This document shows, one piece after another, positions 28,899 through 55,019 of a DNA stretch of 64,000 nt. Numbering within the stretch: the first letter of the stretch is position 1; every line of letters starts with the position of its first letter. This DNA is from Escherichia coli (GTDB lineage Bacteria > Pseudomonadota > Gammaproteobacteria > Enterobacterales > Enterobacteriaceae). Made by a program: the position numbers and the translations under genes. Below the pieces are notes generated by a model. That model did no database searches and was not told where the DNA came from. It worked only from the letters and a program-made list of their open reading frames with translations. The stretch lies in the NCBI RefSeq assembly GCF_013315695.1, contig NZ_CP054353.1. The stretch is one strand, 5' to 3'.

Positions 28899-30440
<1,542 letters not shown>

Positions 30441-30795: not shown

Positions 30796-33699
<2,904 letters not shown>

Positions 33700-33793: not shown

Positions 33794-33913
33794 TGCCTGG
33801 CGGCCTTAGCGCGGTGGTCCCACCTGACCCCATGCCGAACTCAGAAGTGAAACGCCGTAGCGCCGATGGTAGTGTGGGGTCTCCCCATGCGAGAGTAGGG
33901 AACTGCCAGGCAT
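33794..33913 (+). rRNA. rrfE: 5S ribosomal RNA
   Basis: TGCCTGGCGGCCTTAGCGCGGTGGTCCCACCTGACCCCATGCCGAACTCAGAAGTGAAACGCCGTAGCGCCGATGG...CTGCCAGGCAT, 120 nt. Confidence 0.97.
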
Positions 33914-33927
33914 CAAATTAAGCGAAA

Positions 33928-33952
33928 GGCCATCCTGACGGATGGCCTTTTT
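33928..33952 (+). terminator. rRNA operon terminator
   Basis: GGCCATCC-tgac-GGATGGCC followed by TTTTT, 15 nt after 5S. Confidence 0.85.
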
Positions 33953-34002
33953 GCGCTGGTGCAGAAAAAGGTCGGATGCGACGCTGGCGCGTCTTACCCG
34001 AC

Positions 34003-34479
34003 CTACGAAGAGTTGCGGCGAGTGCAGATATCCGCATTATCCCCCACATATGCCAGATTCAGCAATGGATACGGTTTCCCCAAATCGTCCACCTCAGAGC
34101 GTCCCGTAACCTTAAAACCCACCTTCTTATAGAACCCAACCGCCTGCTCATTTTGCTCATTAACATTGGTTGTCAGTTCCGGGGCCATTGAGAGCGCATG
34201 CTTCACCAGCATCCGACCCACGCCGCAGCCGCGCACATCAGGATCGATAAACAGCGCATCCATATGCTGCCCACTTAACAACATAAACCCAACCGGCCGA
34301 TCCCGCTCATTAACCGCGACCCACAACGGCGCTTCCGGCAAGAAGGAACGAACTAGCTCCTCCAGCTCGGCCCGATACTCTGCTGATAAAAAATCGTGAG
34401 TGGCATCGACAGAACGACACCAAATCGCAACGAGTTCCTCCCCTTCCTCATGCCGTGAGCGGCGAATACTAATAACCAT
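34003..34479 (-). CDS. yjaB: GNAT family N-acetyltransferase YjaB
   Basis: 158 aa track ORF MVISIRRSRHEEGEELVAIWCRSVDATHDFLSAEYRAELEEL...; acetyl-CoA binding motif RGCGVGRMLVKHAL, GFYKKVGF. Confidence 0.85.
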   Translation of the reverse strand: MVISIRRSRHEEGEELVAIWCRSVDATHDFLSAEYRAELEELVRSFLPEAPLWVAVNERDRPVGFMLLSGQHMDALFIDPDVRGCGVGRMLVKHALSMAPELTTNVNEQNEQAVGFYKKVGFKVTGRSEVDDLGKPYPLLNLAYVGDNADICTRRNSS

Positions 34480-34592
34480 TTTCTCTCCTTTTCGTCATTC
34501 TTATATTCTAACGTAGCCTTTTCCTTGAAACTTTCTCACCTTCAACATGCAGACTCGACATTGGCAAATTTTCTGGTTATCTTCAGCTATCT

Positions 34593-34616
34593 GGATGTCT
34601 AAACGTATAAGCGTAT
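34593..34616 (+). promoter_or_regulatory. MetJ operator (tandem met boxes) of metA
   Basis: GGATGTCT AAACGTAT AAGCGTAT: three tandem 8 bp repeats related to the met box AGACGTCT, 20-45 nt upstream of metA. Confidence 0.65.
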
Positions 34617-34635
34617 GTAGTGAGGTAATCAGGTT

Positions 34636-35565
34636 ATGCCGATTCGTGTGCCGGACGAGCTACCCGCCGTCAATTTCTTGCGTGAAGAAAACGTCTTTGT
34701 GATGACAACTTCTCGTGCGTCTGGTCAGGAAATTCGTCCGCTAAAGGTACTTATCCTTAACCTGATGCCGAAGAAGATCGAAACTGAAAATCAGTTTCTG
34801 CGCCTGCTTTCAAACTCACCTTTGCAGGTCGATATTCAGCTGTTGCGCATTGATTCCCGTGAATCGCGCAACACGCCCGCAGAGCATCTGAATAACTTCT
34901 ACTGTAACTTTGAAGATATTCAGGAACAAAACTTTGACGGTCTGATAGTTACCGGCGCGCCGCTGGGCCTGGTGGAGTTTAATGATGTCGCTTACTGGCC
35001 GCAGATCAAACAGGTGCTGGAGTGGTCGAAAGATCACGTCACCTCGACGCTGTTTGTCTGCTGGGCGGTACAGGCCGCGCTAAATATCCTCTACGGCATT
35101 CCTAAGCAAACTCGCACCGACAAACTCTCTGGCGTTTACGAGCATCATATTCTCCATCCTCATGCGCTTCTGACGCGTGGCTTTGATGATTCATTCCTGG
35201 CACCGCATTCGCGCTATGCTGACTTTCCGGCAGCGTTGATTCGTGATTACACCGATCTGGAAATTCTGGCAGAGACGGAAGAAGGGGATGCATATCTGTT
35301 TGCCAGCAAAGATAAGCGCATTGCCTTTGTGACGGGCCATCCCGAATATGATGCGCAAACGCTGGCGCAGGAATATTTCCGCGATGTGGAAGCCGGACTA
35401 GACCCGGAAGTACCGTATAACTATTTCCCGCACAATGATCCGCAAAACAAACCGCGAGCGAGCTGGCGTAGTCACGGTAATTTGCTGTTTACCAACTGGC
35501 TCAACTATTACGTCTACCAGATCACGCCATACGATCTACGGCACATGAATCCAACGCTGGATTAA
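34636..35565 (+). CDS. metA: Homoserine O-succinyltransferase
   Basis: 309 aa [51 protein letters not shown]. Confidence 0.96.
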
Positions 35566-35609
35566 TCTTCTGTGATAGTCGATCGTTAAGCGATTCAGCA
35601 CCTTACCTC

Positions 35610-35632
35610 AGGCACCTTCGGGTGCCTTTTTT
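35610..35632 (+). terminator. metA terminator
   Basis: AGGCACC-ttcg-GGTGCCT followed by TTTTTT. Confidence 0.8.
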
Positions 35633-35709
35633 ATTTCCGAAACGCACCTCAGTAGGTGAATAAAATTTATTCATATTGTTATCAATAAGTTATCAAGTAT
35701 TTTTAATTA

Positions 35710-35740
35710 AAATGGAAATTGTTTTTGATTTTGCATTTTA
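35710..35740 (+). promoter_or_regulatory. aceBAK promoter region with IclR box
   Basis: AAATGGAAATTGTTTTTGATTTTGCATTTT, A/T-rich imperfect palindrome resembling the IclR operator (TGGAAAT...ATTTCCA type), about 100 nt upstream of aceB. Confidence 0.45.
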
Positions 35741-35833
35741 AATGAGTAGTCTTAGTTGTGCTGAACGAAAAGCGCACAACGATCCTTCGTTCACAGTGGG
35801 GAAGTTTTCGGATCCATGACGAGGAGCTGCACG

Positions 35834-37435
35834 ATGACTGAACAGGCAACAACAACCGATGAACTGGCTTTCATAAGGCCGTATGGCGAGCAGGAGAAGC
35901 AAATTCTTACTGCCGAAGCGGTAGAATTTCTGACTGAGCTGGTGACGCATTTTACGCCACAACGCAATAAACTTCTGGCAGCGCGCATTCAGCAGCAGCA
36001 GGATATCGATAACGGAACGTTGCCTGATTTTATTTCGGAAACAGCTTCCATTCGTGATGCTGACTGGAAAATTCGTGGTATTCCCGCGGACTTACAAGAT
36101 CGTCGAGTCGAGATAACTGGCCCGGTTGAGCGCAAGATGGTGATCAACGCGCTCAACGCCAATGTGAAAGTCTTTATGGCCGATTTCGAAGATTCACTGG
36201 CCCCGGACTGGAACAAAGTGATCGACGGGCAAATTAACCTGCGCGATGCGGTTAACGGCACCATCAGCTATACCAATGAAGCAGGCAAAATTTATCAGCT
36301 CAAGCCCAATCCAGCGGTGTTGATTTGTCGGGTTCGCGGTCTGCACTTGCCGGAAAAACATGTCACCTGGCGCGGCGAAGCAATTCCTGGCAGCCTGTTT
36401 GATTTTGCGCTCTATTTCTTCCACAACTACCAGGCTCTGTTAGCAAAAGGCAGCGGTCCCTATTTCTATCTGCCGAAAACCCAGTCCTGGCAGGAAGCGG
36501 CCTGGTGGAGCGAAGTCTTCAGCTATGCAGAAGATCGCTTTAATCTGCCGCGCGGCACCATCAAGGCGACGTTGCTGATTGAAACGCTGCCCGCCGTGTT
36601 CCAGATGGACGAAATCCTTCACGCGCTGCGTGACCATATTGTTGGTCTGAACTGCGGTCGTTGGGATTACATCTTCAGTTATATCAAAACGTTGAAAAAC
36701 TATCCCGATCGCGTCCTGCCAGATAGACAGGCAGTGACGATGGATAAACCCTTCCTGAATGCTTACTCACGCCTGTTGATTAAAACCTGCCATAAACGCG
36801 GCGCATTTGCGATGGGCGGCATGGCGGCGTTTATTCCGAGCAAAGATGAAGAGCGCAATAACCAGGTGCTCAACAAAGTAAAAGCGGATAAATCGCTGGA
36901 AGCCAATAACGGTCACGATGGCACATGGATCGCTCACCCAGGTCTTGCGGATACGGCAATGGCGGTATTCAACGACATTCTCGGCTCCCGTAAAAATCAG
37001 CTTGAAGTGATGCGCGAACAAGACGCGCCGATTACTGCCGATCAGCTGCTGGCACCTTGTGATGGTGAACGCACCGAAGAAGGTATGCGCGCCAACATTC
37101 GCGTGGCTGTGCAGTACATCGAAGCATGGATCTCCGGCAACGGCTGCGTGCCGATTTATGGCCTGATGGAAGATGCGGCGACGGCTGAAATTTCCCGTAC
37201 CTCAATCTGGCAGTGGATCCATCATCAAAAAACGTTGAGCAATGGCAAACCGGTGACCAAAGCCTTGTTCCGCCAGATGCTGGGCGAAGAGATGAAAGTC
37301 ATTGCCAGCGAACTGGGCGAAGAACGTTTCTCCCAGGGGCGTTTTGACGATGCCGCACGTTTGATGGAACAGATCACCACTTCCGATGAGTTAATTGATT
37401 TCCTGACCCTGCCAGGCTACCGCCTGTTAGCGTAA
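35834..37435 (+). CDS. aceB: Malate synthase A
   Basis: 533 aa from ATG 35834 ([33 protein letters not shown]); track ORF starts 6 codons upstream. Confidence 0.96.
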
Positions 37436-37464
37436 ACCACCACATAACTATGGAGCATCTGCAC

Positions 37465-38769
37465 ATGAAAACCCGTACACAACAAATTGAAGAATTACAG
37501 AAAGAGTGGACTCAACCGCGTTGGGAAGGCATTACTCGGCCATACAGCGCGGAAGATGTGGTGAAATTACGCGGTTCAGTCAATCCTGAATGCACGCTGG
37601 CGCAACTGGGCGCGGCGAAAATGTGGCGTCTGCTGCACGGCGAGTCGAAAAAAGGCTACATCAACAGCCTCGGTGCACTGACTGGCGGTCAGGCGCTGCA
37701 ACAGGCGAAAGCGGGTATTGAAGCGGTCTATCTGTCGGGATGGCAGGTAGCGGCGGACGCTAACCTGGCGGCCAGCATGTATCCGGATCAGTCGCTCTAT
37801 CCGGCAAACTCGGTGCCAGCTGTGGTGGAGCGGATCAACAACACCTTCCGCCGTGCGGATCAGATCCAATGGTCCGCGGGCATTGAGCCGGGCGATCCGC
37901 GCTATGTCGATTACTTCCTGCCGATCGTTGCTGATGCGGAAGCCGGTTTTGGCGGTGTCCTGAATGCCTTTGAACTGATGAAAGCGATGATTGAAGCCGG
38001 TGCAGCGGCAGTTCACTTCGAAGATCAGCTGGCATCAGTGAAGAAATGCGGTCACATGGGCGGCAAAGTTTTAGTGCCAACTCAGGAAGCTATTCAGAAA
38101 CTGGTCGCGGCGCGTCTGGCAGCTGACGTGACGGGCGTTCCAACCCTTCTGGTTGCCCGTACCGATGCTGATGCGGCGGATCTGATTACCTCCGATTGCG
38201 ACCCGTATGACAGCGAATTTATTACCGGCGAGCGTACCAGTGAAGGCTTCTTCCGTACTCATGCAGGTATTGAACAAGCGATCAGCCGTGGCCTGGCGTA
38301 TGCGCCATATGCTGACCTGGTATGGTGTGAAACCTCCACGCCGGATCTGGAACTGGCGCGTCGCTTTGCACAAGCCATCCACGCGAAATATCCGGGCAAA
38401 CTGCTGGCTTATAACTGCTCGCCTTCGTTCAACTGGCAGAAAAACCTCGACGACAAAACTATTGCCAGCTTCCAGCAGCAGCTGTCGGATATGGGCTACA
38501 AGTTCCAGTTCATCACCCTGGCAGGTATCCACAGCATGTGGTTCAACATGTTTGACCTGGCAAACGCCTATGCCCAGGGCGAGGGTATGAAGCACTATGT
38601 TGAGAAAGTGCAGCAGCCGGAATTTGCCGCCGCGAAAGATGGCTATACCTTCGTATCTCACCAGCAGGAAGTGGGTACAGGTTACTTCGATAAAGTGACG
38701 ACCATTATTCAGGGCGGCACGTCGTCGGTTACCGCACTGACTGGCTCCACTGAAGAATCGCAGTTCTAA
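37465..38769 (+). CDS. aceA: Isocitrate lyase
   Basis: 434 aa from ATG 37465 ([38 protein letters not shown]); KKCGHMGGK active-site motif. Confidence 0.96.
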
Positions 38770-38789: not shown

Positions 38790-38928
38790 ACTGTAGGCCG
38801 GATAAGGCATTTACGCCGCATCCGGCAATCGGTGCACGATGCCTGATGCGACGCTTGCGCGTCTTATCATGCCTACAACCGTTGCCGAACGTAGGCTGGA
38901 TAAGGCGTTTACGCCGCATCCGGCAATT
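38790..38928. repeat. REP/BIME cluster (three REP units, alternating orientation)
   Basis: CTGTAGGCCGGATAAGGCATTTACGCCGCATCCGGCAA, GCCTGATGCGACGCTTGCGCGTCTTATCATGCCTAC, GTAGGCTGGATAAGGCGTTTACGCCGCATCCGGCAA match the E. coli REP consensus. Confidence 0.85.
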
Positions 38929-38952: not shown

Positions 38953-40677
<1,725 letters not shown>

Positions 40678-40693
40678 ATCAGAGGCGAAAAAG

Positions 40694-41518: not shown

Positions 41519-41717
41519 GACAGTCTCCTTTTTCTGTATCGTGGAAATCATTTTCATTTTTATTGTTAGCTAATGCAATAGTTGCTGAACTGATCCGATG
41601 AGTTAATGTTGAACAAATCTCATGTTGCGTGGTGGTCGCTTTTACCACAGATGCGTTTATGCCAGTATGGTTTGTTGAATTTTTATTAAATCTGGGTTGA
41701 GCGTGTCGGGAGCAAGT

Positions 41718-45401
<3,684 letters not shown>

Positions 45402-45620
45402 TTCACAAATCTGTCACTTTTCCTTACAACAAACAGGGCGCTCAATGAGTGCCCTGTCTCTTTATTAATATGAAACACTTATACTGGAATCAGGCTGGAA
45501 TAATCTTAGCCGGAAAAACGAAGGTCAAAAGGCACAGTAAAGATGCCAGTCAGCGTGTTTCCGGTCCTTTGGTCATTCAATTGCTTCAGGAACATATAAC
45601 GATAAGGAGAACCTGAACTC

Positions 45621-47252
45621 GTGTTAACGCTGCTTCACCTGCTTTCTGCCGTCGCCCTGCTGGTCTGGGGGACTCATATTGTTCGAACCGGCGTAATGCG
45701 CGTCTTCGGCGCGCGTCTGCGTACTGTTCTTAGCCGAAGCGTCGAAAAGAAGCCGCTCGCCTTTTGCGCGGGGATAGGCGTTACCGCACTGGTGCAGAGC
45801 AGTAATGCCACCACCATGCTGGTGACCTCGTTTGTCGCTCAGGATCTGGTAGCCCTCGCACCGGCTCTGGTGATTGTGCTGGGTGCAGATGTCGGGACGG
45901 CGCTAATGGCGCGTATTCTCACCTTCGATTTATCCTGGCTGTCACCGTTACTTATTTTTATCGGCGTGATTTTTTTCCTCGGACGCAAACAGTCACGCGC
46001 CGGGCAACTGGGCCGCGTCGGTATTGGTCTTGGGCTGATTTTGCTGGCGCTGGAGTTGATTGTGCAGGCCGTAACGCCGATCACCCAGGCAAACGGCGTT
46101 CAGGTGATCTTTGCCTCGCTGACCGGCGATATTCTGCTGGATGCGCTGATTGGCGCGATGTTCGCCATTATCAGCTACTCCAGCCTTGCTGCTGTACTGC
46201 TGACCGCGACTCTGACCGCCGCAGGCATTATCTCCTTCCCCGTGGCGCTCTGTCTGGTGATTGGTGCTAACCTCGGTTCCGGTCTGCTGGCGATGCTCAA
46301 CAACAGTGCCGCCAATGCCGCAGCCCGCCGTGTCGCGCTGGGTAGCCTGCTGTTTAAGCTGGTGGGTAGCCTGATTATCCTGCCGTTTGTCCATTTGCTG
46401 GCAGAGACAATGGGGAAGTTGCCACTGCCAAAAGCGGAACTGGTGATCTATTTCCACGTCTTCTACAACCTTGTACGCTGCCTGGTCATGCTGCCATTTG
46501 TTGACCCGATGGCACGGTTTTGCAAAACGATTATTCGCGATGAACCGGAACTGGATACCCAGCTACGACCCAAACATCTGGATGTCAGCGCGCTGGATAC
46601 GCCCACGCTTGCTCTGGCGAACGCCGCGCGCGAAACCCTGCGCATTGGCGACGCCATGGAACAGATGATGGAAGGGTTGAATAAAGTGATGCACGGCGAG
46701 CCACGGCAGGAGAAAGAGCTGCGTAAGCTGGCAGATGATATCAACGTTCTCTACACCGCCATTAAGCTGTATCTGGCGCGAATGCCAAAAGAGGAACTGG
46801 CAGAAGAAGAGTCGCGCCGCTGGGCGGAGATCATCGAAATGTCGCTCAACCTTGAACAGGCCTCCGATATCGTCGAGCGCATGGGCAGCGAAATTGCCGA
46901 CAAATCGCTGGCTGCAAGGCGAGCATTTTCGCTTGATGGTTTGAAGGAACTGGATGCGCTCTATGAGCAATTGCTCAGTAATTTAAAACTGGCAATGTCG
47001 GTTTTCTTCTCTGGCGATGTTACCACCGCCCGTCGTTTGCGCCGTAGCAAACATCGTTTTCGCATTCTTAATCGCCGCTATTCCCATGCCCACGTCGATC
47101 GCCTGCATCAGCAAAACGTGCAAAGCATTGAAACCAGTTCGCTACATTTAGGCTTACTGGGAGATATGCAGCGTCTGAACTCGCTGTTTTGTTCGGTGGC
47201 TTACAGTGTGCTGGAACAGCCGGATGAAGACGAAGGACGGGACGAGTATTAA
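45621..47252 (+). CDS. yjbB: Na/Pi cotransporter family membrane protein YjbB
   Basis: 543 aa polytopic N-terminal half plus PhoU-like C-terminal half; position after metH. Confidence 0.9.
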   Translation: MLTLLHLLSAVALLVWGTHIVRTGVMRVFGARLRTVLSRSVEKKPLAFCAGIGVTALVQSSNATTMLVTSFVAQDLVALAPALVIVLGADVGTALMARILTFDLSWLSPLLIFIGVIFFLGRKQSRAGQLGRVGIGLGLILLALELIVQAVTPITQANGVQVIFASLTGDILLDALIGAMFAIISYSSLAAVLLTATLTAAGIISFPVALCLVIGANLGSGLLAMLNNSAANAAARRVALGSLLFKLVGSLIILPFVHLLAETMGKLPLPKAELVIYFHVFYNLVRCLVMLPFVDPMARFCKTIIRDEPELDTQLRPKHLDVSALDTPTLALANAARETLRIGDAMEQMMEGLNKVMHGEPRQEKELRKLADDINVLYTAIKLYLARMPKEELAEEESRRWAEIIEMSLNLEQASDIVERMGSEIADKSLAARRAFSLDGLKELDALYEQLLSNLKLAMSVFFSGDVTTARRLRRSKHRFRILNRRYSHAHVDRLHQQNVQSIETSSLHLGLLGDMQRLNSLFCSVAYSVLEQPDEDEGRDEY

Positions 47253-47261
47253 TACCGTGAC

Positions 47262-47337
47262 CCTGTAGGCCTGATAAGACGCGTAAAGCGTCGCATCAGG
47301 CACGATGAACAAGATGCCGGATCATGCATCCGGCAAT
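47262..47337. repeat. REP element pair
   Basis: CTGTAGGCCTGATAAGACGCGTAAAGCGTCGCATCAGGCA and GATGCCGGATCATGCATCCGGCAA between yjbB and pepE. Confidence 0.8.
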
Positions 47338-47341
47338 TCAT

Positions 47342-48031
47342 TTAAAAACGGTGACCCGCTTCCAGCGGAACCGCTTCTTCACCAGCCTTAAATACATAAG
47401 TGGTGTTCGGGCCACCCAGCGTAGCGTGACCTTTACTTACTGTGATCCAGTTACCTTCCGGCAGACCAATAATCGTCAGTTCTGGCGCGACGACCAGCAG
47501 TTCGCGAATACGCTGCTCACGCGTTTCACCTTTATGGCCTTCCGGCAGCGCGTTGGTGAAGTGCGGGTTGATTTGCAACGGGAACAGATTCAGCGCATCG
47601 AAACCTTGCGGATCGACAATCGGCATATCGTTGGTGGTACGAATGGTTGGGCAAGCAAGGTTAGCGCCTGCGCTCCAGCCAATATACAGCGCGCCACGTT
47701 TCACCACGTCAGTAATTGGTGCCAGCAGCCCGCGCTCGCGGCACTGTTTCAGCAACTGGAAAGTATTACCGCCGCCGACAATCACGATCTCAGCATTTTC
47801 AATCGCGGCAACGGGATCGACAACGCTATGAATACCGGTGACAGAAACACCCAGCGGAGCGAGAACCGCAGCCGTTTTCGCTGTGTAATCATCCCAGGTC
47901 TGCGTTACGCCAGCGAAAGGAATAAATACCGCTGAGCGGCGACCCTGCAACTGTTCAGCAATCAGCGGCAGCGCGTGTTCCAGCCAGGCTTTACCCGGCA
48001 GCGTCGAGTTACTCAATAAAAGCAGTTCCAT
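47342..48031 (-). CDS. pepE: Dipeptidase E (alpha-aspartyl dipeptidase)
   Basis: 229 aa [57 protein letters not shown]. Confidence 0.95.
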
Positions 48032-48153
48032 TACTTCTCCGGTTAGTAAGAAATCACGGGAGCCATGCTACCACTGTGATTTTAACCGCTTACTGACATG
48101 GCTCACGATGTTGCGCATTGCTTCTGGCGTGGCAAACAAGGCGCTGATGTTTC

Positions 48154-48966
48154 TTATCCTTCTCGTGCAAATTGTGCCGCCTCAGCAATCAGTTGCGCAT
48201 CAGGCCGTACGCCGGTATACATTGCGAACTGCTCGACGGCCTGTAAAGCAATCACCTCCGCACCGCTAATCGTCTGCTTATCAAGCCGTTGCGCCAGGCG
48301 AATGAGCGGCGTTTCCGGCGGCAAGGCCACGACATCAAAAACGACGCTTGCCGTTGAGACCATCGCTTCGCTGAAGGCCAGCTCATGGCTCTCTTTACCG
48401 CCGCTCATGCCAACGGGCGTCACGTTGACCAGAATGTCGCAGGCGATGCCTTCCGGCTGCGGTTGCCACTGAAACCCATACTGCTTCGCCAGCGCCGGGC
48501 CGCTCTCGCGGTTGCGGGCGGCAATGATAACATCCGTAAACCCCGCGTCGCGAAAGGCGGCAATCACCGCTTTGCCCATGCCGCCACTGCCGCGAATCAT
48601 CACTCGCGTGGTGGTATTGAGCTGGTGGTGGGTAATCAGGCTTTTCACCGCGATATAGTCGGTGTTAAACCCGGTCAGCCTGCCGTCGTCATTCACGATG
48701 GTATTCACGGAATCAATGACCTTCGCCGACGGATCGATCGCGTCGAGAAAAGGCATGCAGCTTTCTTTAAACGGCATCGACACAGCGCAACCGCGAATAC
48801 CCAACGCGCGAACCCCTTTCACCGCCGCTGCAATATCCTGGGTGGTGAACGCTTTATAGATGAAATTCAGCCCCAGCTTTTCATAAAGATAATTGTGAAA
48901 ACGCGTGCCGAAGTTACCGGGGCGGCCGGCCAGCGACATGCAGAGTTGAGTATCGCGATTAATCAT
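48154..48966 (-). CDS. AroE/YdiB-family (shikimate dehydrogenase-like) NAD(P) oxidoreductase, substrate unknown
   Basis: 271 aa from ATG(rc) 48964-48966: MINRDTQLCMSLAGRPGNFGTRFHNYLYEKLGLNFIYKAF...NTDYIA...IRGSGGMGKAV; N-terminal substrate domain, NTD motif and Gly-rich Rossmann loop laid out as in AroE; start overlaps the sorE stop (ATGATTAA). Confidence 0.75.
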   Translation of the reverse strand: MINRDTQLCMSLAGRPGNFGTRFHNYLYEKLGLNFIYKAFTTQDIAAAVKGVRALGIRGCAVSMPFKESCMPFLDAIDPSAKVIDSVNTIVNDDGRLTGFNTDYIAVKSLITHHQLNTTTRVMIRGSGGMGKAVIAAFRDAGFTDVIIAARNRESGPALAKQYGFQWQPQPEGIACDILVNVTPVGMSGGKESHELAFSEAMVSTASVVFDVVALPPETPLIRLAQRLDKQTISGAEVIALQAVEQFAMYTGVRPDAQLIAEAAQFAREG

Positions 48967-50188
48967 GGGAAATCGCCTCTGCATGGGCGAGCAGGTACTG
49001 CTCCGCCTCGCCAGACCAGACTCCCTGATGACGCGCCAGAATCGCCGCCAGTTCTTCATCCTGAATCTGCGTGAGTGATGTCAGCGGCAGATATTTCCCG
49101 GTATACACCAGTTTTTTCCCGCCGCCGACGGCAGGCAATTCAAGCGTGGTTTCGCCCGCGGCATTCAGCCCAAGAATATGTGTTACCACTTTTGCGGCCT
49201 GCACTTTTTTCTCTTCAATCAATTTGACCGCTGCGCGCATGTCGTCGGTATTGCCGCCTGACGTGCCTACGTAGTGGGTAAATGCATAATGCACATCGTA
49301 GAAATTAATTGGCGCGCTGAAGTGCTTATCCTGCGGTCCGGCGAAGAAATTCAGGCAACCATCTGTCGCCAGCAAGGAAGAGGCGAGAGTCACCAGTCCT
49401 TCATTAGGCACAAAGACGAAAATATCATCGAAGCCGTGACCGCCACTCAGCGCCATTAACGTATCAAATGCTGCATCGGTGGCATTGAGATAATGAATCA
49501 GTGTTTGCGGTTCTGATGGATAGTGCTTGCGCGCATAACTCAATTTGTCGTTGTCGGTATCGGTAATGACGAGCAGCGAAGGGTTAACGGGTCCATGTAG
49601 CGCATAATCAATCGCCAACAGTCCCATTGGTCCGGTGCCGCCGAGGATCAGCGTGCGCCCTTGCGGGCGAATCCCCATCGTGTGGTTATAACTACCTTCC
49701 TGAAGATGATAGTTGGCGTTGAACGCGCCAATCACGCAGGAAAGCGGTTCAACCAGCGAGCCTTCAAAATAGGTTTCGCCGTCGTATGCCAGCAGGCAAT
49801 CTTGTTCCATGACCTCGTTGGGAATAACCACATGCGTCGCTTCGCCGCCTACCCACGGGAAGGAGTAGCCGGGGCAGTCCGGGCGGTCGGGGAGTTGCAG
49901 GTTGGCCTGAATCACATAACGCTGACCCGGCTGGAATTTGTGCTGCCACTTTTTACCCACGGCCAGAATATCGCCGCAAAATTCGTGGCCGATGATGATG
50001 GGATTGGTCGCCACATCGTCGGGTACTTTTTTATGGTTTTCCCCCAGATTGGCCTCTTTCCAGGAAGAGAGGCACAGGCTGTCAGTGACCACCGTCGCGA
50101 GGATTTCATCCTCCTGCATTTCAGGAAGGTCAAAGGTTTCCAGACGCAGGTCACGTTTGCCATAAAGACGCAGAGCTGTTGTTTTCAT
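48959..50188 (-). CDS. sorE: Sorbose-1-phosphate reductase (Zn-dependent MDR dehydrogenase)
   Basis: About 409 aa (MKTTALRLYGKRDLRLETFDL...), zinc-ADH fold motifs GHEFCGDI and LILGGTGPMG; last gene of the sor-type PTS cluster; start ambiguous (track ORF 48959..50200). Confidence 0.75.
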   Translation of the reverse strand: MKTTALRLYGKRDLRLETFDLPEMQEDEILATVVTDSLCLSSWKEANLGENHKKVPDDVATNPIIIGHEFCGDILAVGKKWQHKFQPGQRYVIQANLQLPDRPDCPGYSFPWVGGEATHVVIPNEVMEQDCLLAYDGETYFEGSLVEPLSCVIGAFNANYHLQEGSYNHTMGIRPQGRTLILGGTGPMGLLAIDYALHGPVNPSLLVITDTDNDKLSYARKHYPSEPQTLIHYLNATDAAFDTLMALSGGHGFDDIFVFVPNEGLVTLASSLLATDGCLNFFAGPQDKHFSAPINFYDVHYAFTHYVGTSGGNTDDMRAAVKLIEEKKVQAAKVVTHILGLNAAGETTLELPAVGGGKKLVYTGKYLPLTSLTQIQDEELAAILARHQGVWSGEAEQYLLAHAEAISHD

Positions 50189-50239
50189 AAACCACCTCAT
50201 GTTGAGCGATGACCCCGGCAGTCGTGCCGGGGCGAAGAA

Positions 50240-51064
50240 TCAGGACAGGAAGCCCAGCGCATTACCGATAATCCCTAAACCAAACAGGGCGAAAATCAGC
50301 CATACCGGGTTAATTTTTTTGTTGAGCAGACGTACCATCAGCAGCGTCAAACCGAGCGCCAGCAATCCAGGGCAAAGCTGGTCGAGAATGTTCTGTACGG
50401 TCATAGTGACGGTGGCACCATCGGCGGCAGGCGTTTGTGAAACCACTAACGGCACGTTGATCGATGTCCATTTGGTCACCAGTACGCCCATTACAAACAG
50501 CCCGAGAATCGACGCGCCTTCGGTCAGTTTTTGCAGCAAATTACCGCCCATATCGCTGACGATATTCACCCCTTTACGAAAGCCCAGTTGCAGCCCATAC
50601 CATTTCATTGCCAGACGTACTGCATTGAAAATAAAGAAGAACAGCAGGGGGCCGAGAATGTTGCCCGAAAGTGCCAGAGATGCGCCGAGCGCGGCGGTAA
50701 TCGGGCGCAGCGTTCCCCAGACCAGTGGATCGCCAACACCTGCCAACGGTCCCATCAGGCCGACTTTGATGCCGTTAATGGTACCGTCATCAATTTCCGC
50801 GCCGTTGGCTCGCGCCTCTTCCATGGCGGCAGTGACGCCGATGACCGGGCCACATACGGCTGGCGTGGTATTGAAGAACACCAGGTGTCGCCTGAGCGCC
50901 GCAACTTGATCCTCTTTTAATGGGTAAAGTCGTTTGATGGCGGGGATCATGTCGTAGCAAAAACCCAGCCCGTGAATACGTTCAAAGTTAAAGGATGCCT
51001 GTTGCAGGTTGGAGCGCAGAAACATGCTCACCAGATCGCTGCGTGTAATTTTTCTCTGTTCCAT
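50240..51064 (-). CDS. sorM: PTS sorbose (mannose-family) EIID component
   Basis: About 274 aa (MEQRKITRSDLVSMFLRSNLQQASFNFERIHGLGFCY), characteristic EIID-Man N-terminus; alternative start 51094. Confidence 0.8.
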   Translation of the reverse strand: MEQRKITRSDLVSMFLRSNLQQASFNFERIHGLGFCYDMIPAIKRLYPLKEDQVAALRRHLVFFNTTPAVCGPVIGVTAAMEEARANGAEIDDGTINGIKVGLMGPLAGVGDPLVWGTLRPITAALGASLALSGNILGPLLFFFIFNAVRLAMKWYGLQLGFRKGVNIVSDMGGNLLQKLTEGASILGLFVMGVLVTKWTSINVPLVVSQTPAADGATVTMTVQNILDQLCPGLLALGLTLLMVRLLNKKINPVWLIFALFGLGIIGNALGFLS

Positions 51065-51074
51065 GATGGCTCCG

Positions 51075-51872
51075 TTAATCATCAAGTTGGTCAAGGGCGG
51101 TGATAGTGGTGGTCTGGGGATGTGGTTCAGCTTTACGCCACTGTGGATTTAACTGGATGTAGAGCAGGGCCATGATCACGCCGACGCCACCGAACGCCAG
51201 CAGACTGAGATCGAGGTAGCCACCTGCGAGGAAACCGAGGAAAAAGAAAGGCATCAAATATTTCACGCCCATCATGCGAAGCACCATGGCGTAACCGACC
51301 ACCACGATAAAACCGCCAGCAATCTGCAGCCCACGGGTCACAAATTCGGGAATGGCGCTCAGCATATTGCTCACCATATCAGCGCTGACGAACAGCGAGA
51401 CAATCAGTGCCGGAATAGCAACGCGCAGTGCCTGCACGCCAAGCGCGGAGACATGCAGAATATCGAGAGTGCGAAACCGTGCTTCTTCCGCTGCTTTATC
51501 CGCCGCGTGCTGGAACACTACGGTGATGGTACGGGCAAACACCGTCAGCACCTGGCCTGCCGCAGCCACAGGCAACGCGATGGCGATTCCGGTGGCGATG
51601 CTTTGCTGACCAACGATAACCAGAATGGCGGAGATTATGCTGGCGAGTGCAGAATCCGGAGATTGCGCCGCGCCGACGTTCATCCAGCCGAGAGCTATCA
51701 ATTCCAGCGTACCACCGAGCATAATTCCGGTTTTTAAATCACCGAGAATTAAACCAATCACCGTACAGGCAATTAACGGACGATGAGTCTGAAATTCATC
51801 CAGCACGCTGCCCATTCCGGCAATACAGGAAAAAAGAAATATAGCAATAATTTGTAGGGTACTTATTTCCAT
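51075..51872 (-). CDS. sorA: PTS sorbose EIIC component
   Basis: 265 aa polytopic membrane protein MEISTLQIIAIFLFSCIAGMGSVLDEFQTHRPLIACTVIGLILGDLKTGIMLGGTLELIALGW (EIIC-Man family). Confidence 0.8.
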   Translation of the reverse strand: MEISTLQIIAIFLFSCIAGMGSVLDEFQTHRPLIACTVIGLILGDLKTGIMLGGTLELIALGWMNVGAAQSPDSALASIISAILVIVGQQSIATGIAIALPVAAAGQVLTVFARTITVVFQHAADKAAEEARFRTLDILHVSALGVQALRVAIPALIVSLFVSADMVSNMLSAIPEFVTRGLQIAGGFIVVVGYAMVLRMMGVKYLMPFFFLGFLAGGYLDLSLLAFGGVGVIMALLYIQLNPQWRKAEPHPQTTTITALDQLDD

Positions 51873-51937
51873 GATTTGTCACCTTTTAAGTGTCGTCATC
51901 CCTGCCTGTTAAAGCATATGTACACAGGCGCTATTAT

Positions 51938-52432
51938 TTAATTTGCGATTAACTGTTCGTTTATTTTGTCGATAATATTGATTGAGGGATCTGACGCTAC
52001 GACGCGTAAATCCAGTATGACGCCAAGATTATTTAACTCATGAAATGCGTTAATATCATCGTCATCTAATGAAACTGCTTTGGTTAACTGTTTCTTACCA
52101 GGACGCCAGGCCATACCGCCAATATTCAGGGTACCTATTTTTACCCCCTGGCGAACCATTGCTAAGGCATCTTGTGGGCGAGTGAAAAGATAAAAAACGG
52201 TTTCGTCCTGATATTGCGGGTTGTGATAAACCGCGACGGCTTTTTCAATATTGACCACGTTAACCTTCATTCCCGGTGGCGCAGCCTGACGCAATAATGT
52301 CCGGCGAACTTCATCGTTATAAACTTCGTCATTGCAGATAATAATGCGTTGGGCGTTAGCCACTTTAGACCAGACGGTAGTGACCTGGCCGTGGATCAGG
52401 CGGTCATCAATGCGGGCGAGCGTAATGTTCAT
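51938..52432 (-). CDS. sorB: PTS sorbose EIIB component
   Basis: 164 aa MNITLARIDDRLIHGQVTTVWSK, EIIB-Man phosphohistidine motif. Confidence 0.82.
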   Translation of the reverse strand: MNITLARIDDRLIHGQVTTVWSKVANAQRIIICNDEVYNDEVRRTLLRQAAPPGMKVNVVNIEKAVAVYHNPQYQDETVFYLFTRPQDALAMVRQGVKIGTLNIGGMAWRPGKKQLTKAVSLDDDDINAFHELNNLGVILDLRVVASDPSINIIDKINEQLIAN

Positions 52433-52839
52433 CAGAAATCCTCCTCCGCTGTTGCCACCTGTCTCCAGACGACGCAGATTTGCTTTGCGATTTGCGTCAG
52501 GTGTTCACACAGTTCATCAATATTCATGCTGTCCTGGTTATCAACCAGTTCGAGCGCCAGCGGCAGAGAAAGGCCGCTGATTACCCGCAGACGAGGATTG
52601 CGCATCGCAAGCATCGCTGCCGCATTCCACGGGCTGCCGCACTGTAAATCCACGGCAATCAGCCACTCATCTTGATTGTGAATGCTTGCTAACTTTTCCA
52701 GCTTTGCTACGATGTCTCCGGCGTTCTCGCCGGGCACAAATTCAACGGCCTCGACCCTGGCATCGCCGTACACCATCTGAACCGATTCCAGCATGGCGCA
52801 AGCTAATTTGCCATGGGCGCAAAAAATGGCATTGACCAT
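52432..52839 (-). CDS. sorF: PTS sorbose EIIA component
   Basis: 135 aa MVNAIFCAHGKLACAMLESVQMVYGD, EIIA-Man with conserved His near N-terminus. Confidence 0.82.
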   Translation of the reverse strand: MVNAIFCAHGKLACAMLESVQMVYGDARVEAVEFVPGENAGDIVAKLEKLASIHNQDEWLIAVDLQCGSPWNAAAMLAMRNPRLRVISGLSLPLALELVDNQDSMNIDELCEHLTQIAKQICVVWRQVATAEEDF

Positions 52840-52848
52840 AAAGCCTCC

Positions 52849-53655
52849 TTAGCCGCGCGTTTTGCCGCCCGCAATGTTAGTGGTTACTCCGGTGATATAG
52901 CTGGCGCGTTCAGACAGCAGATAACAAACAAAATCAGCCACTTCTGCTAATCTTCCGGCGCGCCCAATAGGAATGGCGTTTTTGGTATAGCCTTCACGCA
53001 GCTGCTCGACGGTGATATTGCGCGTCCACGCCAGCGCTTCTTCATATTCCGGCGTGCGCAGTCCTGTTTTTTCCAGAATCCCCGGCGCGATACCGACCAC
53101 ACGGATACCGTGCTTACCCAGTTCTTTCGACCAGGAGCGAGTGAAGCTATTGAGCGCAGCTTTAGTGGCGGCGTAGCAGCTCTGGCCTTCTGAGCCTTCC
53201 AGCCCACTTTCTGAGGAAACATTCACAATCACGCCATCGTGTTGTTTGACCATCTGTCGCGCCACCGCCTGCGACATCAGAAAAACGCCTTTCTGGTTGA
53301 TATTGACCATTTTTTCGAATGCAGCTTCGTTGAGTTCATACTGCCCGGCAGGCGCTTTCTCATCGACCAGCAGACGCGGGAAATTGACCCCGGCGTTATT
53401 GACCAGACCGTCGATGCGACCAAAACGCTGGATAATTTCTGCTACCGTATGATTTACCTCTTTGGCGCTGGAAATATCGGTCGGCCAAAACTGATAGCCT
53501 TTATGACCTTCATATTGTCCATCGCCACCGTGAATATCGACCATCTGTACATTCGCGCCTTGTGCTAATAATTCATCCACAATCGCCAGACCAATGCCGG
53601 ATGCGCCACCGGTGACAATAATGATTTTATCCTGCAAATTTAACCACGTTTGCAT
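52849..53655 (-). CDS. sorD: Short-chain dehydrogenase (D-glucitol-6-phosphate dehydrogenase type)
   Basis: 268 aa MQTWLNLQDKIIIVTGGASGIGLAIV... (TGxxxGIG), SDR catalytic YAATK. Confidence 0.8.
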   Translation of the reverse strand: MQTWLNLQDKIIIVTGGASGIGLAIVDELLAQGANVQMVDIHGGDGQYEGHKGYQFWPTDISSAKEVNHTVAEIIQRFGRIDGLVNNAGVNFPRLLVDEKAPAGQYELNEAAFEKMVNINQKGVFLMSQAVARQMVKQHDGVIVNVSSESGLEGSEGQSCYAATKAALNSFTRSWSKELGKHGIRVVGIAPGILEKTGLRTPEYEEALAWTRNITVEQLREGYTKNAIPIGRAGRLAEVADFVCYLLSERASYITGVTTNIAGGKTRG

Positions 53656-53724
53656 AACAGACTCCTGATTTTAGATAATAGGGACCCGCCGTAATTTTTA
53701 TTACGGTAAACATCGGGAAGATTT

Positions 53725-54672
53725 TTATTTCAGTAATAGTTCAGCTGTGCTGCTATTCGTTACCAGACAATTAATATATTTTCCACGCAGTGCACCAACA
53801 ATTCCGCTGTATTTTTCTTCACTCATGGCAATGCCAATGGAATATCGTGCCTGCTTTAATTTATTCATTTCGATAGAGAGTGTTTTTTCGCTCATATTCG
53901 TTTCAACCATTGCGCCGTGAATATCAAAAAAGCGCGAGCAAATATCGCCAGCAACCTGGCGGGCATTCAGGTCGTCACTCTCTTCACCACCATAAAACGC
54001 ATGCCAGTTAGCGCCGTCGCGAATGGCCGGTGAGCCAATTCCCACCAGGGCGACATCCAGATTATCCCAGTAGGCAGAGATGGTTTTAAAGTGCTGAGAC
54101 TGCATGATCCCATTACGAATTAATGGGTTATCCAGCAGAGCCGGAAAATCCGCGAGATGCGATTCCCCTTTCAACTTCGCTGCCGCGCTGTAGGTTAATG
54201 TGTTTACATGATAGCGGCTTTCGAGTTTACCGGACGGTCCGCCAATAATTGGTACGCAGATTAACTGCCGCGATTGCCCCGCCTGCGGCAAGTTTTCAAC
54301 CAGTGCGCTCACCGCGCGGCCCCAGGAAAAACCAACAATATCGCCAGGTTCCAGCAAGCGATCCAGCAGTTGCGCGCCGTGTAACCCCATCATCGCCAGT
54401 TGAGTCTCTTCATCCTCATCATTTCCCGACACCACCACAACGTCTTTCAGGCCAAACTTTTGCTTCAGTTGCTGCTCCAGCCAGAGATTTTCGTTGTAGT
54501 CATAGTTGATGGCGATGGTGACAATTCCCTGATCGCGGCCTCGTTTAAGCAAGCGGCTGATGGTGGTGCGGTAAATACCCAGTTCGCGCGCGATTTGCGC
54601 CTGCGTCATATCCTGTTCGTAATAGAGTTGGGCAATCTTCACAATCAAACGGATATCGTCACTGTTTTCCAT
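53725..54672 (-). CDS. sorC: SorC-family transcriptional regulator of the sorbose operon
   Basis: 315 aa from ATG(rc) 54670-54672 (MENSDDIRLIVKIAQLYYEQDMTQAQIARELGIYRTTISRLLKRGRDQGIV), N-terminal HTH plus sugar-phosphate binding domain; first gene of the cluster. Confidence 0.8.
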   Translation of the reverse strand: MENSDDIRLIVKIAQLYYEQDMTQAQIARELGIYRTTISRLLKRGRDQGIVTIAINYDYNENLWLEQQLKQKFGLKDVVVVSGNDEDEETQLAMMGLHGAQLLDRLLEPGDIVGFSWGRAVSALVENLPQAGQSRQLICVPIIGGPSGKLESRYHVNTLTYSAAAKLKGESHLADFPALLDNPLIRNGIMQSQHFKTISAYWDNLDVALVGIGSPAIRDGANWHAFYGGEESDDLNARQVAGDICSRFFDIHGAMVETNMSEKTLSIEMNKLKQARYSIGIAMSEEKYSGIVGALRGKYINCLVTNSSTAELLLK

Positions 54673-55019
54673 TGCCGCCTCCTGGTTCTGCACATTTGTG
54701 CAAATACGCTTTCTCACCGCTTGATCTGATATAACCCCATCATGATGGCCTTTCAAAGCGATTTTTCACTCTTTGCATGGGGGGAAATAGCGCTTTCTCT
54801 TGCACATTTGTTTCTCTGCGTAGTAGTCATCAGCACAGGTGTGCAGCGATTCGTAATATGTTGATTATCCTTATTTTGCCAGGCAAATTTGCATCGTACT
54901 TCCGGAGACACTTTTGTGATAAAAGGCGTGGCAGATCACATTTAATTTCGACGTTGCCGCATAACCCTGTTTTTCCCCGCTAAGAGGTACGGTATATTCC
55001 GCGTTTTACAGGAGAATTT

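What the first reader, a model, noticed from the sequence alone, without database searches (positions are those of the whole stretch)
33914..34002. yjaA is absent between the 5S rRNA gene and yjaB
Only 89 bp, containing the rRNA terminator, separate rrfE from the yjaB stop codon. K-12 carries yjaA in this position, and yjaA is a phylotyping marker. Its absence here is a lineage-informative indel.
Basis: partly seen in the sequence, partly recalled or inferred. Interest (0 to 1): 0.3.

Follow-up and report, generated by a model that had tools for sequence, protein, structure and literature searches.

The report
yjaA-less junction after rRNA operon E
This E. coli strain lacks the small gene yjaA that K-12 carries between its rrnE ribosomal RNA operon and yjaB; this is a well-known strain-typing difference shared by about half of all E. 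coli, so the finding is correct but ordinary.

Summary
The 5S rRNA gene ends at 33913 and the yjaB stop codon is at 34003-34005 on the minus strand. The 89 bp between them hold a strong terminator hairpin and a REP-like palindrome, and no yjaA. K-12 has yjaA (b4011) exactly here. yjaA is absent from the whole window and from the six complete genomes with the same junction.

The absence is common. Of 5,426 complete E. coli genomes, 2,594 have yjaA, almost always at this locus, and 2,832 lack it. arpA, a second typing marker, is also missing from the window. The nearest non-identical relatives over a 10-kb stretch are ST648-type genomes (phylogroup F), where the arpA-negative, yjaA-negative profile is expected.

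Three refinements:
- It is a replacement, not a simple indel: 518 bp in K-12 against 120 unrelated bp here.
- At least three interchangeable cassettes occupy this site. The window has a rare one. A 1-nt difference in a C-run lengthens its YjaB by 11 residues, which is why the gap is 89 bp rather than about 125 bp.
- The cassette moves by recombination anchored in the rRNA operon. A yjaA-less copy of the junction lies downstream of rrnG, where it encodes K-12's small protein YfiS.

Whether yjaA was lost or gained is unresolved. Verdict: already known, low interest.

The parts
33794..33913 (+). rrfE, the 5S rRNA gene at the end of the rrnE operon
   Evidence: Rfam RF00001 at 93.2 bits. It aligns over its full 120 nt with K-12 rrfE. 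Synteny purH-rrs-tRNA-Glu-rrl-rrf-yjaB-metA is seen in MSB1_4I.
33914..33920 (+). CAAATTA, the 7 nt after the 5S gene that K-12 and most aligned E. coli alleles share (two aligned yjaA-less alleles differ by one base); left edge of the variable cassette
   Evidence: Alignments A1 and A2.
33921..34040 (.). Window-specific 'N2' cassette of 120 bp, occupying the place of the 518-bp K-12 segment (another terminator, yjaA, a 62-bp spacer and the end of yjaB)
   Evidence: Alignments A1 and A2. yjaA-less genomes match K-12 only from L001 position 1186 onward. Window 33950-34050 is 100% identical at this locus in only 6 of 5,426 genomes.
33922..33954 (+). Intrinsic-terminator hairpin of rrnE: core stem GGCCATCC/GGATGGCC at 33928-33935 and 33940-33947, T-run at 33948-52. 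An A-tract on the other side makes it look bidirectional.
   Evidence: Fold energy -22.3 kcal/mol, z = -6.7. The terminator scan flags it on the minus strand. The same hairpin follows the 5S gene in Citrobacter koseri and Kosakonia, with compensated stem variants in Salmonella, Klebsiella, another Citrobacter and Phytobacter.
33971..34006 (.). REP-like palindromic element GGTCGGATGCGACGCTGGCGCGTCTTACCCGACCTAC
   Evidence: The core 33974-33996 has one other copy in the window, at 38844-38866 with 2 mismatches, against 0 expected by chance. That copy lies inside the Rfam naRNA4 hit. It forms a stable hairpin, mainly on the minus strand. A REP-like element occupies the same position in other enteric species.
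34003..34479 (-). yjaB, a GNAT lysine acetyltransferase, in a 158-aa form. The last 11 residues (NADICTRRNSS) plus the stop codon run into the REP element (34003-34038).
   Evidence: ORF list. NCBIfam NF007807 at 276 bits against a cutoff of 134, plus Pfam GNAT domains. K-12 YjaB is 147 aa and ends ...LAYVGA*. The same protein, WP_000236989.1, is annotated in MSB1_4I and GF131.
34041..34045 (.). C-run with 5 C where homology to K-12 resumes. It has 6 C in strain E7-1N7 and in the rrnG-distal copy of strain 042; with 6 C the TAA stop is in frame and YjaB is 147 aa.
   Evidence: Alignments A2 and A5. yjaB is annotated at 444 nt in E7-1N7 against 477 nt here.

Best explanation
The window comes from an E. 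coli whose nearest non-identical relatives are phylogroup F. It carries one of the old yjaA-less forms of the rrnE-yjaB junction.

Shown. The 89 bp consist of the rrnE terminator hairpin, which sits between two convergent transcription units, followed by a REP-like palindrome. The yjaB reading frame ends inside the REP because the C-run at the end of the gene has 5 C rather than 6.

Shown. The site between the 5S gene (plus 7 nt) and the last codon of yjaB holds at least three unrelated cassettes across E. coli: a yjaA cassette of 518 bp, a common yjaA-less cassette (N1) and a rare one (N2, found here).

Inferred. Cassettes are exchanged by homologous recombination. One end lies in the long, near-identical rRNA operon and the other in yjaB or metA. 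The absence of yjaA here is therefore inherited and recombination-shuffled allelic variation, not a fresh deletion in this strain. Within its yjaA-less relatives, this lineage swapped an N1 cassette for N2.
For: Anatomy.

K-12 has yjaA at this position.

yjaA is present in 2,594 of 5,426 genomes and is single-copy. The K-12 type junction is covered in 2,586 genomes, so yjaA is essentially always at this locus.

The six genomes with the window's junction have no yjaA elsewhere. In the chimeric query they match only the window part and have one matching place.

arpA is also absent, with a 16-bp aceK-iclR gap, and the in-silico PCR is negative for both markers.

Window 41700-52000 is 99.5% identical to ST648-type genomes. 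ST648 is phylogroup F (PMC8281228), and those genomes carry the N1 junction.

The right flank (660 bp) is 100% identical to GF131 (N2), 99.5% to CE10 (N1) and 99.2% to RIVM_C036204 (yjaA+). It is only 97.4% and 95.4% identical to two other N2 strains. Cassette type is therefore uncoupled from the flank.

Against strain ST648, differences cluster in the cassette and in yjaB's 3' part, then none from 34296 to 35780.

In E. whittamii the stretch from the 5S gene to the metA promoter is 96.8-100% identical to K-12, while metA and aceB are about 93%.

yjaA-less junctions with the same hairpin-plus-REP layout occur in Salmonella, Citrobacter, Klebsiella and Escherichia sp. E1V33; a divergent Escherichia genome also lacks yjaA there, though its contig ends before the 5S.
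Against: The direction of the original event is not settled. yjaA orthologues at about 65% aa identity sit at the same position in Kosakonia and Phytobacter, so yjaA may be ancestral and the yjaA-less state derived.

The window's flank is almost as close to yjaA-positive strains such as 536 (phylogroup B2 in PMC8281228) at 99.2% as to the phylogroup F strain CE10 at 99.5%. A loss from a yjaA-positive ancestor of this lineage is therefore not excluded.

Terminator and REP functions are inferred from sequence and folding only.

chuA and TspE4.C2 lie outside the window, so the phylogroup assignment rests on relatives and on two of the four markers.
Confidence: 0.8

Rival explanations
1. Recent loss in this lineage by ectopic recombination. 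A yjaA-positive ancestor lost yjaA when the rrnE-distal flank was converted using the yjaA-less paralogous flank downstream of rrnG. The left anchor was the rRNA operon and the right anchor the roughly 55-bp yjaB-like fragment.
For: Every E. coli examined has a yjaA-less copy of the junction downstream of rrfG, consisting of the hairpin, a REP (partly deleted in K-12) and the last 19 yjaB codons. The match is 183 bp at 88.5% (E = 8e-61) between the window and strain 042, and 47 of 53 nt (E = 4e-12) in K-12.

An N2-type cassette 94% identical to the window's lies at rrnG in 186 genomes.

The window's flank is 99.2% identical to yjaA-positive strains such as 536, which is phylogroup B2 in PMC8281228.
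Against: The window's own lineage does not hold an N2 copy at rrnG: the N2 query finds one place per genome in MSB1_4I and OZ547117.

The rrnE and rrnG N2 copies differ at 5 of 88 cassette positions (about 6 over the full 101-nt query), so no recent conversion links them.

The nearest relatives (ST648-type genomes and CE10) are already yjaA-less.

The test in strain N3, which has N2 at both sites, was inconclusive.
Confidence: 0.12
2. yjaA-less is the ancestral state in Escherichia. K-12-like strains (phylogroup A, and B2 strains such as 536) gained the yjaA cassette by rRNA-operon-anchored recombination from another enteric bacterium. On this view the window simply never had yjaA.
For: Salmonella, Citrobacter, Klebsiella and Escherichia sp. 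E1V33 lack yjaA and share the hairpin-plus-REP layout, and a divergent Escherichia genome also lacks yjaA.

The rrnG-distal duplicate was copied from a yjaA-less junction and is near-universal in E. coli.

E. whittamii shows that such an import can happen.

The terminator hairpin of the E. coli yjaA cassette differs from that of all other enterics examined.
Against: Kosakonia and Phytobacter carry yjaA at the same site, and their proteins diverge from E. coli's roughly as vertical descent would give: YjaA about 65% identical and YjaB about 77%.

No donor lineage was identified.

This rival concerns polarity only. It is compatible with the best explanation's account of the window.
Confidence: 0.45
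3. Artefact: assembly collapse at the rRNA operon removed yjaA, or yjaA has moved elsewhere in the genome.
For: rRNA operons are repeats that often break or confuse assemblies. Many outgroup contigs end here.
Against: Six independent complete genomes have the junction at 100% identity, and 2,832 complete genomes lack yjaA.

Full-length yjaA copies (2,587) and K-12 type junctions (2,586) agree almost exactly.

The chimeric query finds no yjaA segment elsewhere in these genomes.
Confidence: 0.01

Closest known systems
Clermont phylotyping marker yjaA (triplex 2000, quadruplex 2013; ClermonTyping, PMC6113867)
   Same: This is the same locus and the same presence/absence polymorphism. The window is yjaA-negative and arpA-negative by sequence and by in-silico PCR. 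That matches the phylogroup F, or minority B2, profile listed in PMC10145502.
   Different: The typing scheme treats yjaA as present or absent. Here the absent state resolves into at least two unrelated cassettes (N1 and N2), and the boundaries fall 7 nt after the 5S gene and at the last codon of yjaB.
rrnB T2-type intrinsic terminator of E. coli rRNA operons
   Same: The hairpin is GGCCATCC-TGAC-GGATGGCC followed by TTTTTGCG, directly after ...GCCAGGCATCAAATTAAGC. Some strains carry a longer, roughly 160-bp insert before this hairpin at rrnE, which I recognise from memory as the rrnB T1-plus-T2 arrangement.
   Different: Here it directly follows a complete 5S gene at rrnE. K-12's rrnE uses a different hairpin, CCCCGGTCC-ATAA-GGCCGGGG. 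The identification as rrnB T2 rests on my memory of the rrnB sequence and was not checked against an rrnB record.
REP (repetitive extragenic palindromic) elements
   Same: It is a roughly 36-nt imperfect palindrome with the core GATGCGACGCTGGCGCGTCTTA and the tail CCTAC. It lies between convergent genes and has a second copy in the window inside the naRNA4 hit.
   Different: The outer stem is unusual (GGTCGG...CCGACC). The lengthened yjaB frame ends inside it, so it is not strictly extragenic here.
yfiS (b4783), the 20-aa small protein gene between kgtP and rrfG in K-12
   Same: YfiS is MEVGKLGKPYPLLNLAYVGV*, which mirrors the YjaB C-terminus ...EVDDLGKPYPLLNLAYVGA*. Its flank repeats the hairpin-REP-yjaB-end order of the yjaA-less rrnE junction.
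   Different: It lies at another rRNA operon, outside the window, and keeps only the last 19 or so codons of yjaB. I found no paper in the searchable library that notes this relationship.

Membership tests
yjaA-negative genotype (Clermont marker absent) | No yjaA sequence or primer sites in the genome | tested here: met
   The window gives only chance matches and has no primer sites at up to 4 mismatches, apart from one isolated chance site. The six genomes with an identical junction have no second place matching an 80-nt yjaA segment. The source genome itself was not available in full.
yjaA-negative genotype (Clermont marker absent) | The locus where yjaA normally sits (rrfE to yjaB) is intact and contiguous | tested here: met
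   rrfE, 89 bp, then yjaB and metA in one uninterrupted sequence. The same is seen in annotated complete genomes.
Simple insertion/deletion | One allele equals the other minus a contiguous segment | tested here: not met
   Between shared breakpoints K-12 has 518 bp (L001 668-1185) and the window has 120 bp (33921-34040) with no detectable homology.
Intrinsic (rho-independent) terminator | G+C-rich hairpin immediately followed by a T-run, downstream of the transcription unit | tested here: met
   Energy -22.3 kcal/mol, z = -6.7, with TTTTT after the stem. The consensus scan flagged it only on the minus strand, because A/T tracts extend the stem. Termination activity was not tested.
REP element | Imperfect palindrome of about 35 nt matching the REP consensus, repeated in the genome, in intergenic DNA | tested here: inconclusive
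   The core is repeated at 38844-38866 against 0 expected by chance. It forms a hairpin, but z is only -1.2 on the plus strand. Genome-wide copy number was not counted, and the 3' end overlaps the lengthened yjaB frame.
YjaB acetyltransferase (NCBIfam NF007807, PRK10514 equivalog) | Full-length match above the curated cutoff | tested here: met
   276 bits against a cutoff of 134, residues 1-145 on profile positions 1-145 of 147. The 11-residue tail lies outside the profile.
Phylogroup F of E. coli | Quadruplex profile arpA-, chuA+, yjaA-, TspE4.C2- | tested here: inconclusive
   arpA- and yjaA- are shown. chuA and TspE4.C2 are outside the window. The nearest non-identical relatives over 10 kb are ST648-type genomes, and ST648 is phylogroup F (PMC8281228).

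The most novel reading that the evidence does not exclude
The Clermont marker yjaA sits in a recombination hot spot where at least three unrelated cassettes are swapped between the end of rrnE and the stop codon of yjaB. A yjaA-less duplicate of this junction downstream of rrnG, which gave rise to the small protein gene yfiS, serves as an in-genome template. Ectopic conversion from that template can erase yjaA in one step. This would explain both the sharp breakpoints and the patchy distribution of the marker across phylogroups.
Probability: 0.25. Interest if true: 0.4.

Novelty: already known. Interest (0 to 1): 0.15.

Why it matters
As stated, the finding adds little. yjaA presence or absence has been a routine E. 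coli typing marker since 2000, and a yjaA-negative, arpA-negative profile is what the typing scheme lists for phylogroup F. Its practical value is a quick lineage call for the window.

The anatomy uncovered here matters modestly for people who use or interpret the marker.
- The negative state is not one allele but several.
- The cassette can be carried across lineages, and even across species, by recombination anchored in the rRNA operon.
- A paralogous yjaA-less template exists at rrnG.

These points give a concrete reason why yjaA-based typing sometimes disagrees with whole-genome phylogeny. They also suggest an origin for the small protein YfiS.

Tried and rejected
1. yjaA remnant in the junction. 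An exact 11-mer, TGCAGAAAAAG, is shared between yjaA (nt 126-136) and window 33960-33970. It is A-rich, about 18 such 11-mers occur across the window by chance, and a similar motif occurs in yjaA-less Citrobacter. I treat it as chance.

2. Intragenomic conversion in strain N3, which has N2 at both rrnE and rrnG. A chimeric query built to rank N3's rrnG copy first did not bring it into the top 30, so the test is inconclusive.

3. Literature. I searched for any description of the yjaA, rrnE and yjaB junction anatomy, for strain MSB1_4I and for E. coli YfiS. Nothing relevant turned up in the searchable library.

4. Pfam has no family for YjaA. Only NCBIfam NF041448 'stress_YjaA' matches, so no functional inference was possible beyond the annotation name.

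5. Counting the N1 cassette by megablast was not informative, because N1 is heterogeneous, with small indels.

6. Dating the rrnG-distal duplicate in Salmonella or Klebsiella was not possible.

Full report
**Observation**

The window holds a complete rRNA operon: 16S at 28899-30440, tRNA-Glu, 23S at 30796-33699 and 5S. Alignment with K-12 rrfE places the 120-nt 5S gene at 33794-33913. On the minus strand an ORF at 34003-34479 encodes a GNAT acetyltransferase. It matches the YjaB equivalog NF007807 at 276 bits against a cutoff of 134. The near-identical genome MSB1_4I differs from the window at 4 positions in 41 kb and annotates the ORF as yjaB, in the order purH-rrnE-yjaB-metA-aceBAK.

In K-12 MG1655 the same interval holds yjaA (b4011), between rrfE (b4010) and yjaB (b4012). 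Nothing resembling yjaA exists anywhere in the 64-kb window, at either protein or DNA level.

**What the 89 bp contain**

After 7 nt shared with K-12 and most other alleles (CAAATTA) comes a hairpin, GGCCATCC-TGAC-GGATGGCC, flanked by an A-tract and a T-run, at 33922-33954. Its predicted energy is -22.3 kcal/mol, z = -6.7, and 0 of 200 shuffles fold as well. The same hairpin follows the 5S gene at this locus in Citrobacter koseri and Kosakonia, and Salmonella, Klebsiella, another Citrobacter and Phytobacter carry compensated stem variants. From memory it is the rrnB T2 type.

Next comes a REP-like palindrome at 33971-34006. Its core recurs once more in the window, at 38844-38866, against zero expected by chance. 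That second copy lies inside the Rfam naRNA4 hit.

The yjaB stop codon (CTA on the plus strand, 34003-34005) lies in the tail of this REP.

**Not a simple indel**

Homology to K-12 stops at 33920 and resumes at 34041, at CCCCCACATA. Between those points K-12 has 518 bp (L001 668-1185): a different terminator hairpin, yjaA, a 62-bp spacer, and the last codon and stop of yjaB. The window has 120 unrelated bp (33921-34040).

Ten E. coli alleles were aligned. Three families emerge, all diverging 7 nt after the 5S gene and all reconverging at the C-run:

| Family | Members in the alignment |
|---|---|
| yjaA+ | K-12, RIVM_C036204 |
| Common yjaA-less, 'N1' | CE10, ERL03-1416, SH21PTE31, 2017.09.02CC, 2014C-3011 |
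| Rare yjaA-less, 'N2' | window, GF131, E7-1N7 |

Strain N3 is a further N2 member, identified separately. Some alleles (2014C-3011 and N3) also carry about 160 bp more, which from memory is the rrnB-like T1 terminator plus a 5S fragment, ahead of the hairpin.

The window's YjaB is 158 aa rather than 147. Its C-run has 5 C where E7-1N7, and the rrnG copy described below, have 6. With 6 C the TAA stop is in frame (...VGG*). With 5 C the frame runs on for 11 residues into the REP. This explains why the gap is 89 bp here and about 125 bp in most yjaA-less genomes.

**Population numbers** (5,426 complete E. coli genomes)

- yjaA is found in 2,594 genomes (48%), with a median of one copy.
- The K-12 type junction from the rrfE-distal end through yjaA into yjaB is covered at 80% or more in 2,586 genomes. 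yjaA is thus essentially never elsewhere, and 2,832 genomes (52%) lack it.
- The window's junction segment (33950-34050) is 100% identical at this locus in only six genomes: OZ547117, MSB1_4I, MS 21-1, GF131, OZ546925 and OZ546911. It is 95-98% identical in three more.
- A chimeric query joining the window junction to 80 nt of yjaA ranks those six genomes first. They match only the window part and have a single matching place each, so none carries that yjaA segment anywhere.

**Lineage**

arpA, the second Clermont marker that maps inside this window, is also absent. aceK ends at 40677 and iclR starts at 40694. In an in-silico PCR the AceK.f primer site is present at 40279-40298, but the ArpA1.r site and all yjaA primer sites are absent. 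The primer sequences are from memory; the yjaA pairs were validated on K-12, where each pair gives the expected 211-bp product.

By the published scheme, an arpA-negative, yjaA-negative profile is phylogroup F, or a minority of B2 (PMC10145502; method in PMC6113867). Window 41700-52000 is identical in five genomes and 99.5% identical to a large group of ST648-type genomes. ST648 is phylogroup F (PMC8281228), and these genomes carry the N1 junction. The absence of yjaA is therefore what this lineage is expected to show.

**The cassette is exchangeable**

The 660 bp to the right of the cassette were compared across strains:

| Strain | Cassette | Identity to window |
|---|---|---|
| GF131 | N2 | 100% |
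| CE10 | N1 | 99.5% |
| RIVM_C036204 | yjaA+ | 99.2% |
| E7-1N7 | N2 | 97.4% |
| N3 | N2 | 95.4% (over 610 of the 660 bp) |

Cassette type and flank are thus uncoupled.

Against strain ST648, differences cluster in the cassette and in the 3' part of yjaB (14 between 34122 and 34295). There are none from 34296 to 35780. That is a mosaic with a breakpoint inside yjaB.

In E. whittamii the stretch from the 5S gene through yjaA and yjaB to the metA promoter is 96.8-100% identical to K-12, while metA and aceB are about 93%. This is a recombination import whose other end must lie in the rRNA operon.

**Polarity is unresolved**

- Points toward ancestral presence with repeated loss: yjaA orthologues at about 65% aa identity occupy the same position in Kosakonia and Phytobacter, preceded by the common hairpin.
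- Points toward ancestral absence: Salmonella, Citrobacter, Klebsiella and Escherichia sp. E1V33 have the yjaA-less hairpin-plus-REP layout, and a divergent Escherichia genome also lacks yjaA there although its contig ends before the 5S.

**A paralogous junction at rrnG**

About 180 genomes hold a 94% copy of the window's N2 segment at a second locus. In strain 042 that locus is the spacer between rrfG and kgtP. There the homology to the window runs 183 bp at 88.5% (E = 8e-61), from the 5S end through the hairpin, REP and spacer into the last 19 codons of yjaB.

K-12 has the same arrangement with a partly deleted REP. The yjaB-like fragment there is annotated as the 20-aa small protein gene yfiS. 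YfiS reads MEVGKLGKPYPLLNLAYVGV*, against the YjaB C-terminus ...EVDDLGKPYPLLNLAYVGA*. The DNA match is 47 of 53 nt, E = 4e-12 at genome scale. This flank is covered at 80% or more in 4,531 genomes and gives some match in 5,422.

The rrnG flank is therefore an old copy of a yjaA-less rrnE junction. It could act as a template for ectopic conversion that removes yjaA. That step is inference only. The window's own lineage has no N2 copy at rrnG, and a test in strain N3 was inconclusive.

**Verdict**

The feature is a textbook typing polymorphism in its expected state, so it counts as already known and of low interest. The added details are modest but concrete by-products: a replacement rather than an indel, several negative alleles, a lengthened YjaB, recombination anchored in the rRNA operon, and the relationship between yfiS and yjaB.

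Noticed in passing
window 40678-40693 (aceK ends 40677, iclR starts 40694): arpA, another Clermont phylotyping marker that lies between aceK and iclR in K-12, is absent. Only 16 bp separate the two convergent genes. The AceK.f primer site is present at 40279-40298 and the ArpA1.r site is absent.
   Followed up: yes
L051 1926-1988 (K-12 NC_000913.3 2725925-2725987); L049 2463-2826 (strain 042): K-12's annotated small protein gene yfiS (20 aa) is a duplicated 3' end of yjaB. It sits downstream of rrfG within a yjaA-less copy of the rrnE-distal junction (hairpin, REP, yjaB end). No paper in the searchable library mentions this.
   Followed up: partly
L011 (Escherichia whittamii Sa2BVA5, NZ_JACSQI010000001.1): The 5S-yjaA-yjaB segment is 96.8-100% identical to E. 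coli K-12, while the adjacent metA and aceB are about 93%. This indicates a cross-species import of the yjaA cassette.
   Followed up: yes
window 34003-34041: YjaB carries an 11-residue C-terminal extension (NADICTRRNSS) caused by a 5-C rather than 6-C run. The same protein (WP_000236989.1) is annotated in both MSB1_4I and GF131, and a same-length (477-nt) yjaB in strain N3. Any effect on the enzyme is unknown.
   Followed up: partly
window 33805-33806: The 5S gene reads GGCGGCCTTAGCG where K-12 rrfE reads GGCGGCAGTAGCG. This two-base difference is at 5S positions 12-13.
   Followed up: no
L006 (2014C-3011) and L050 (N3), rrnE-distal end: Some strains carry about 160 extra bp after rrfE. From memory this reproduces the rrnB T1 terminator plus a partial 5S repeat ahead of the T2-like hairpin, which suggests exchange of distal ends between rRNA operons.
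   Followed up: partly
window 38796-38873: An Rfam naRNA4 (CssrE, REP-derived nucleoid-associated RNA) hit at 81.8 bits lies just upstream of aceK (38953-40677). It contains the window's only other copy of the REP core found at the rrnE junction.
   Followed up: no
window about 48150-54700 (L002 34455-40973): A gene cluster with sorE, four mannose/fructose/sorbose-family PTS subunit genes, a shikimate 5-dehydrogenase, an SDR oxidoreductase and a sugar-binding regulator follows pepE. From memory, K-12 lacks this cluster.
   Followed up: no
window 36100-38600 (aceB-aceA): Relative to strain ST648, aceB and aceA carry scattered clusters of differences after a 1.5-kb stretch with none. This indicates further recombination mosaicism in the region.
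   Followed up: no
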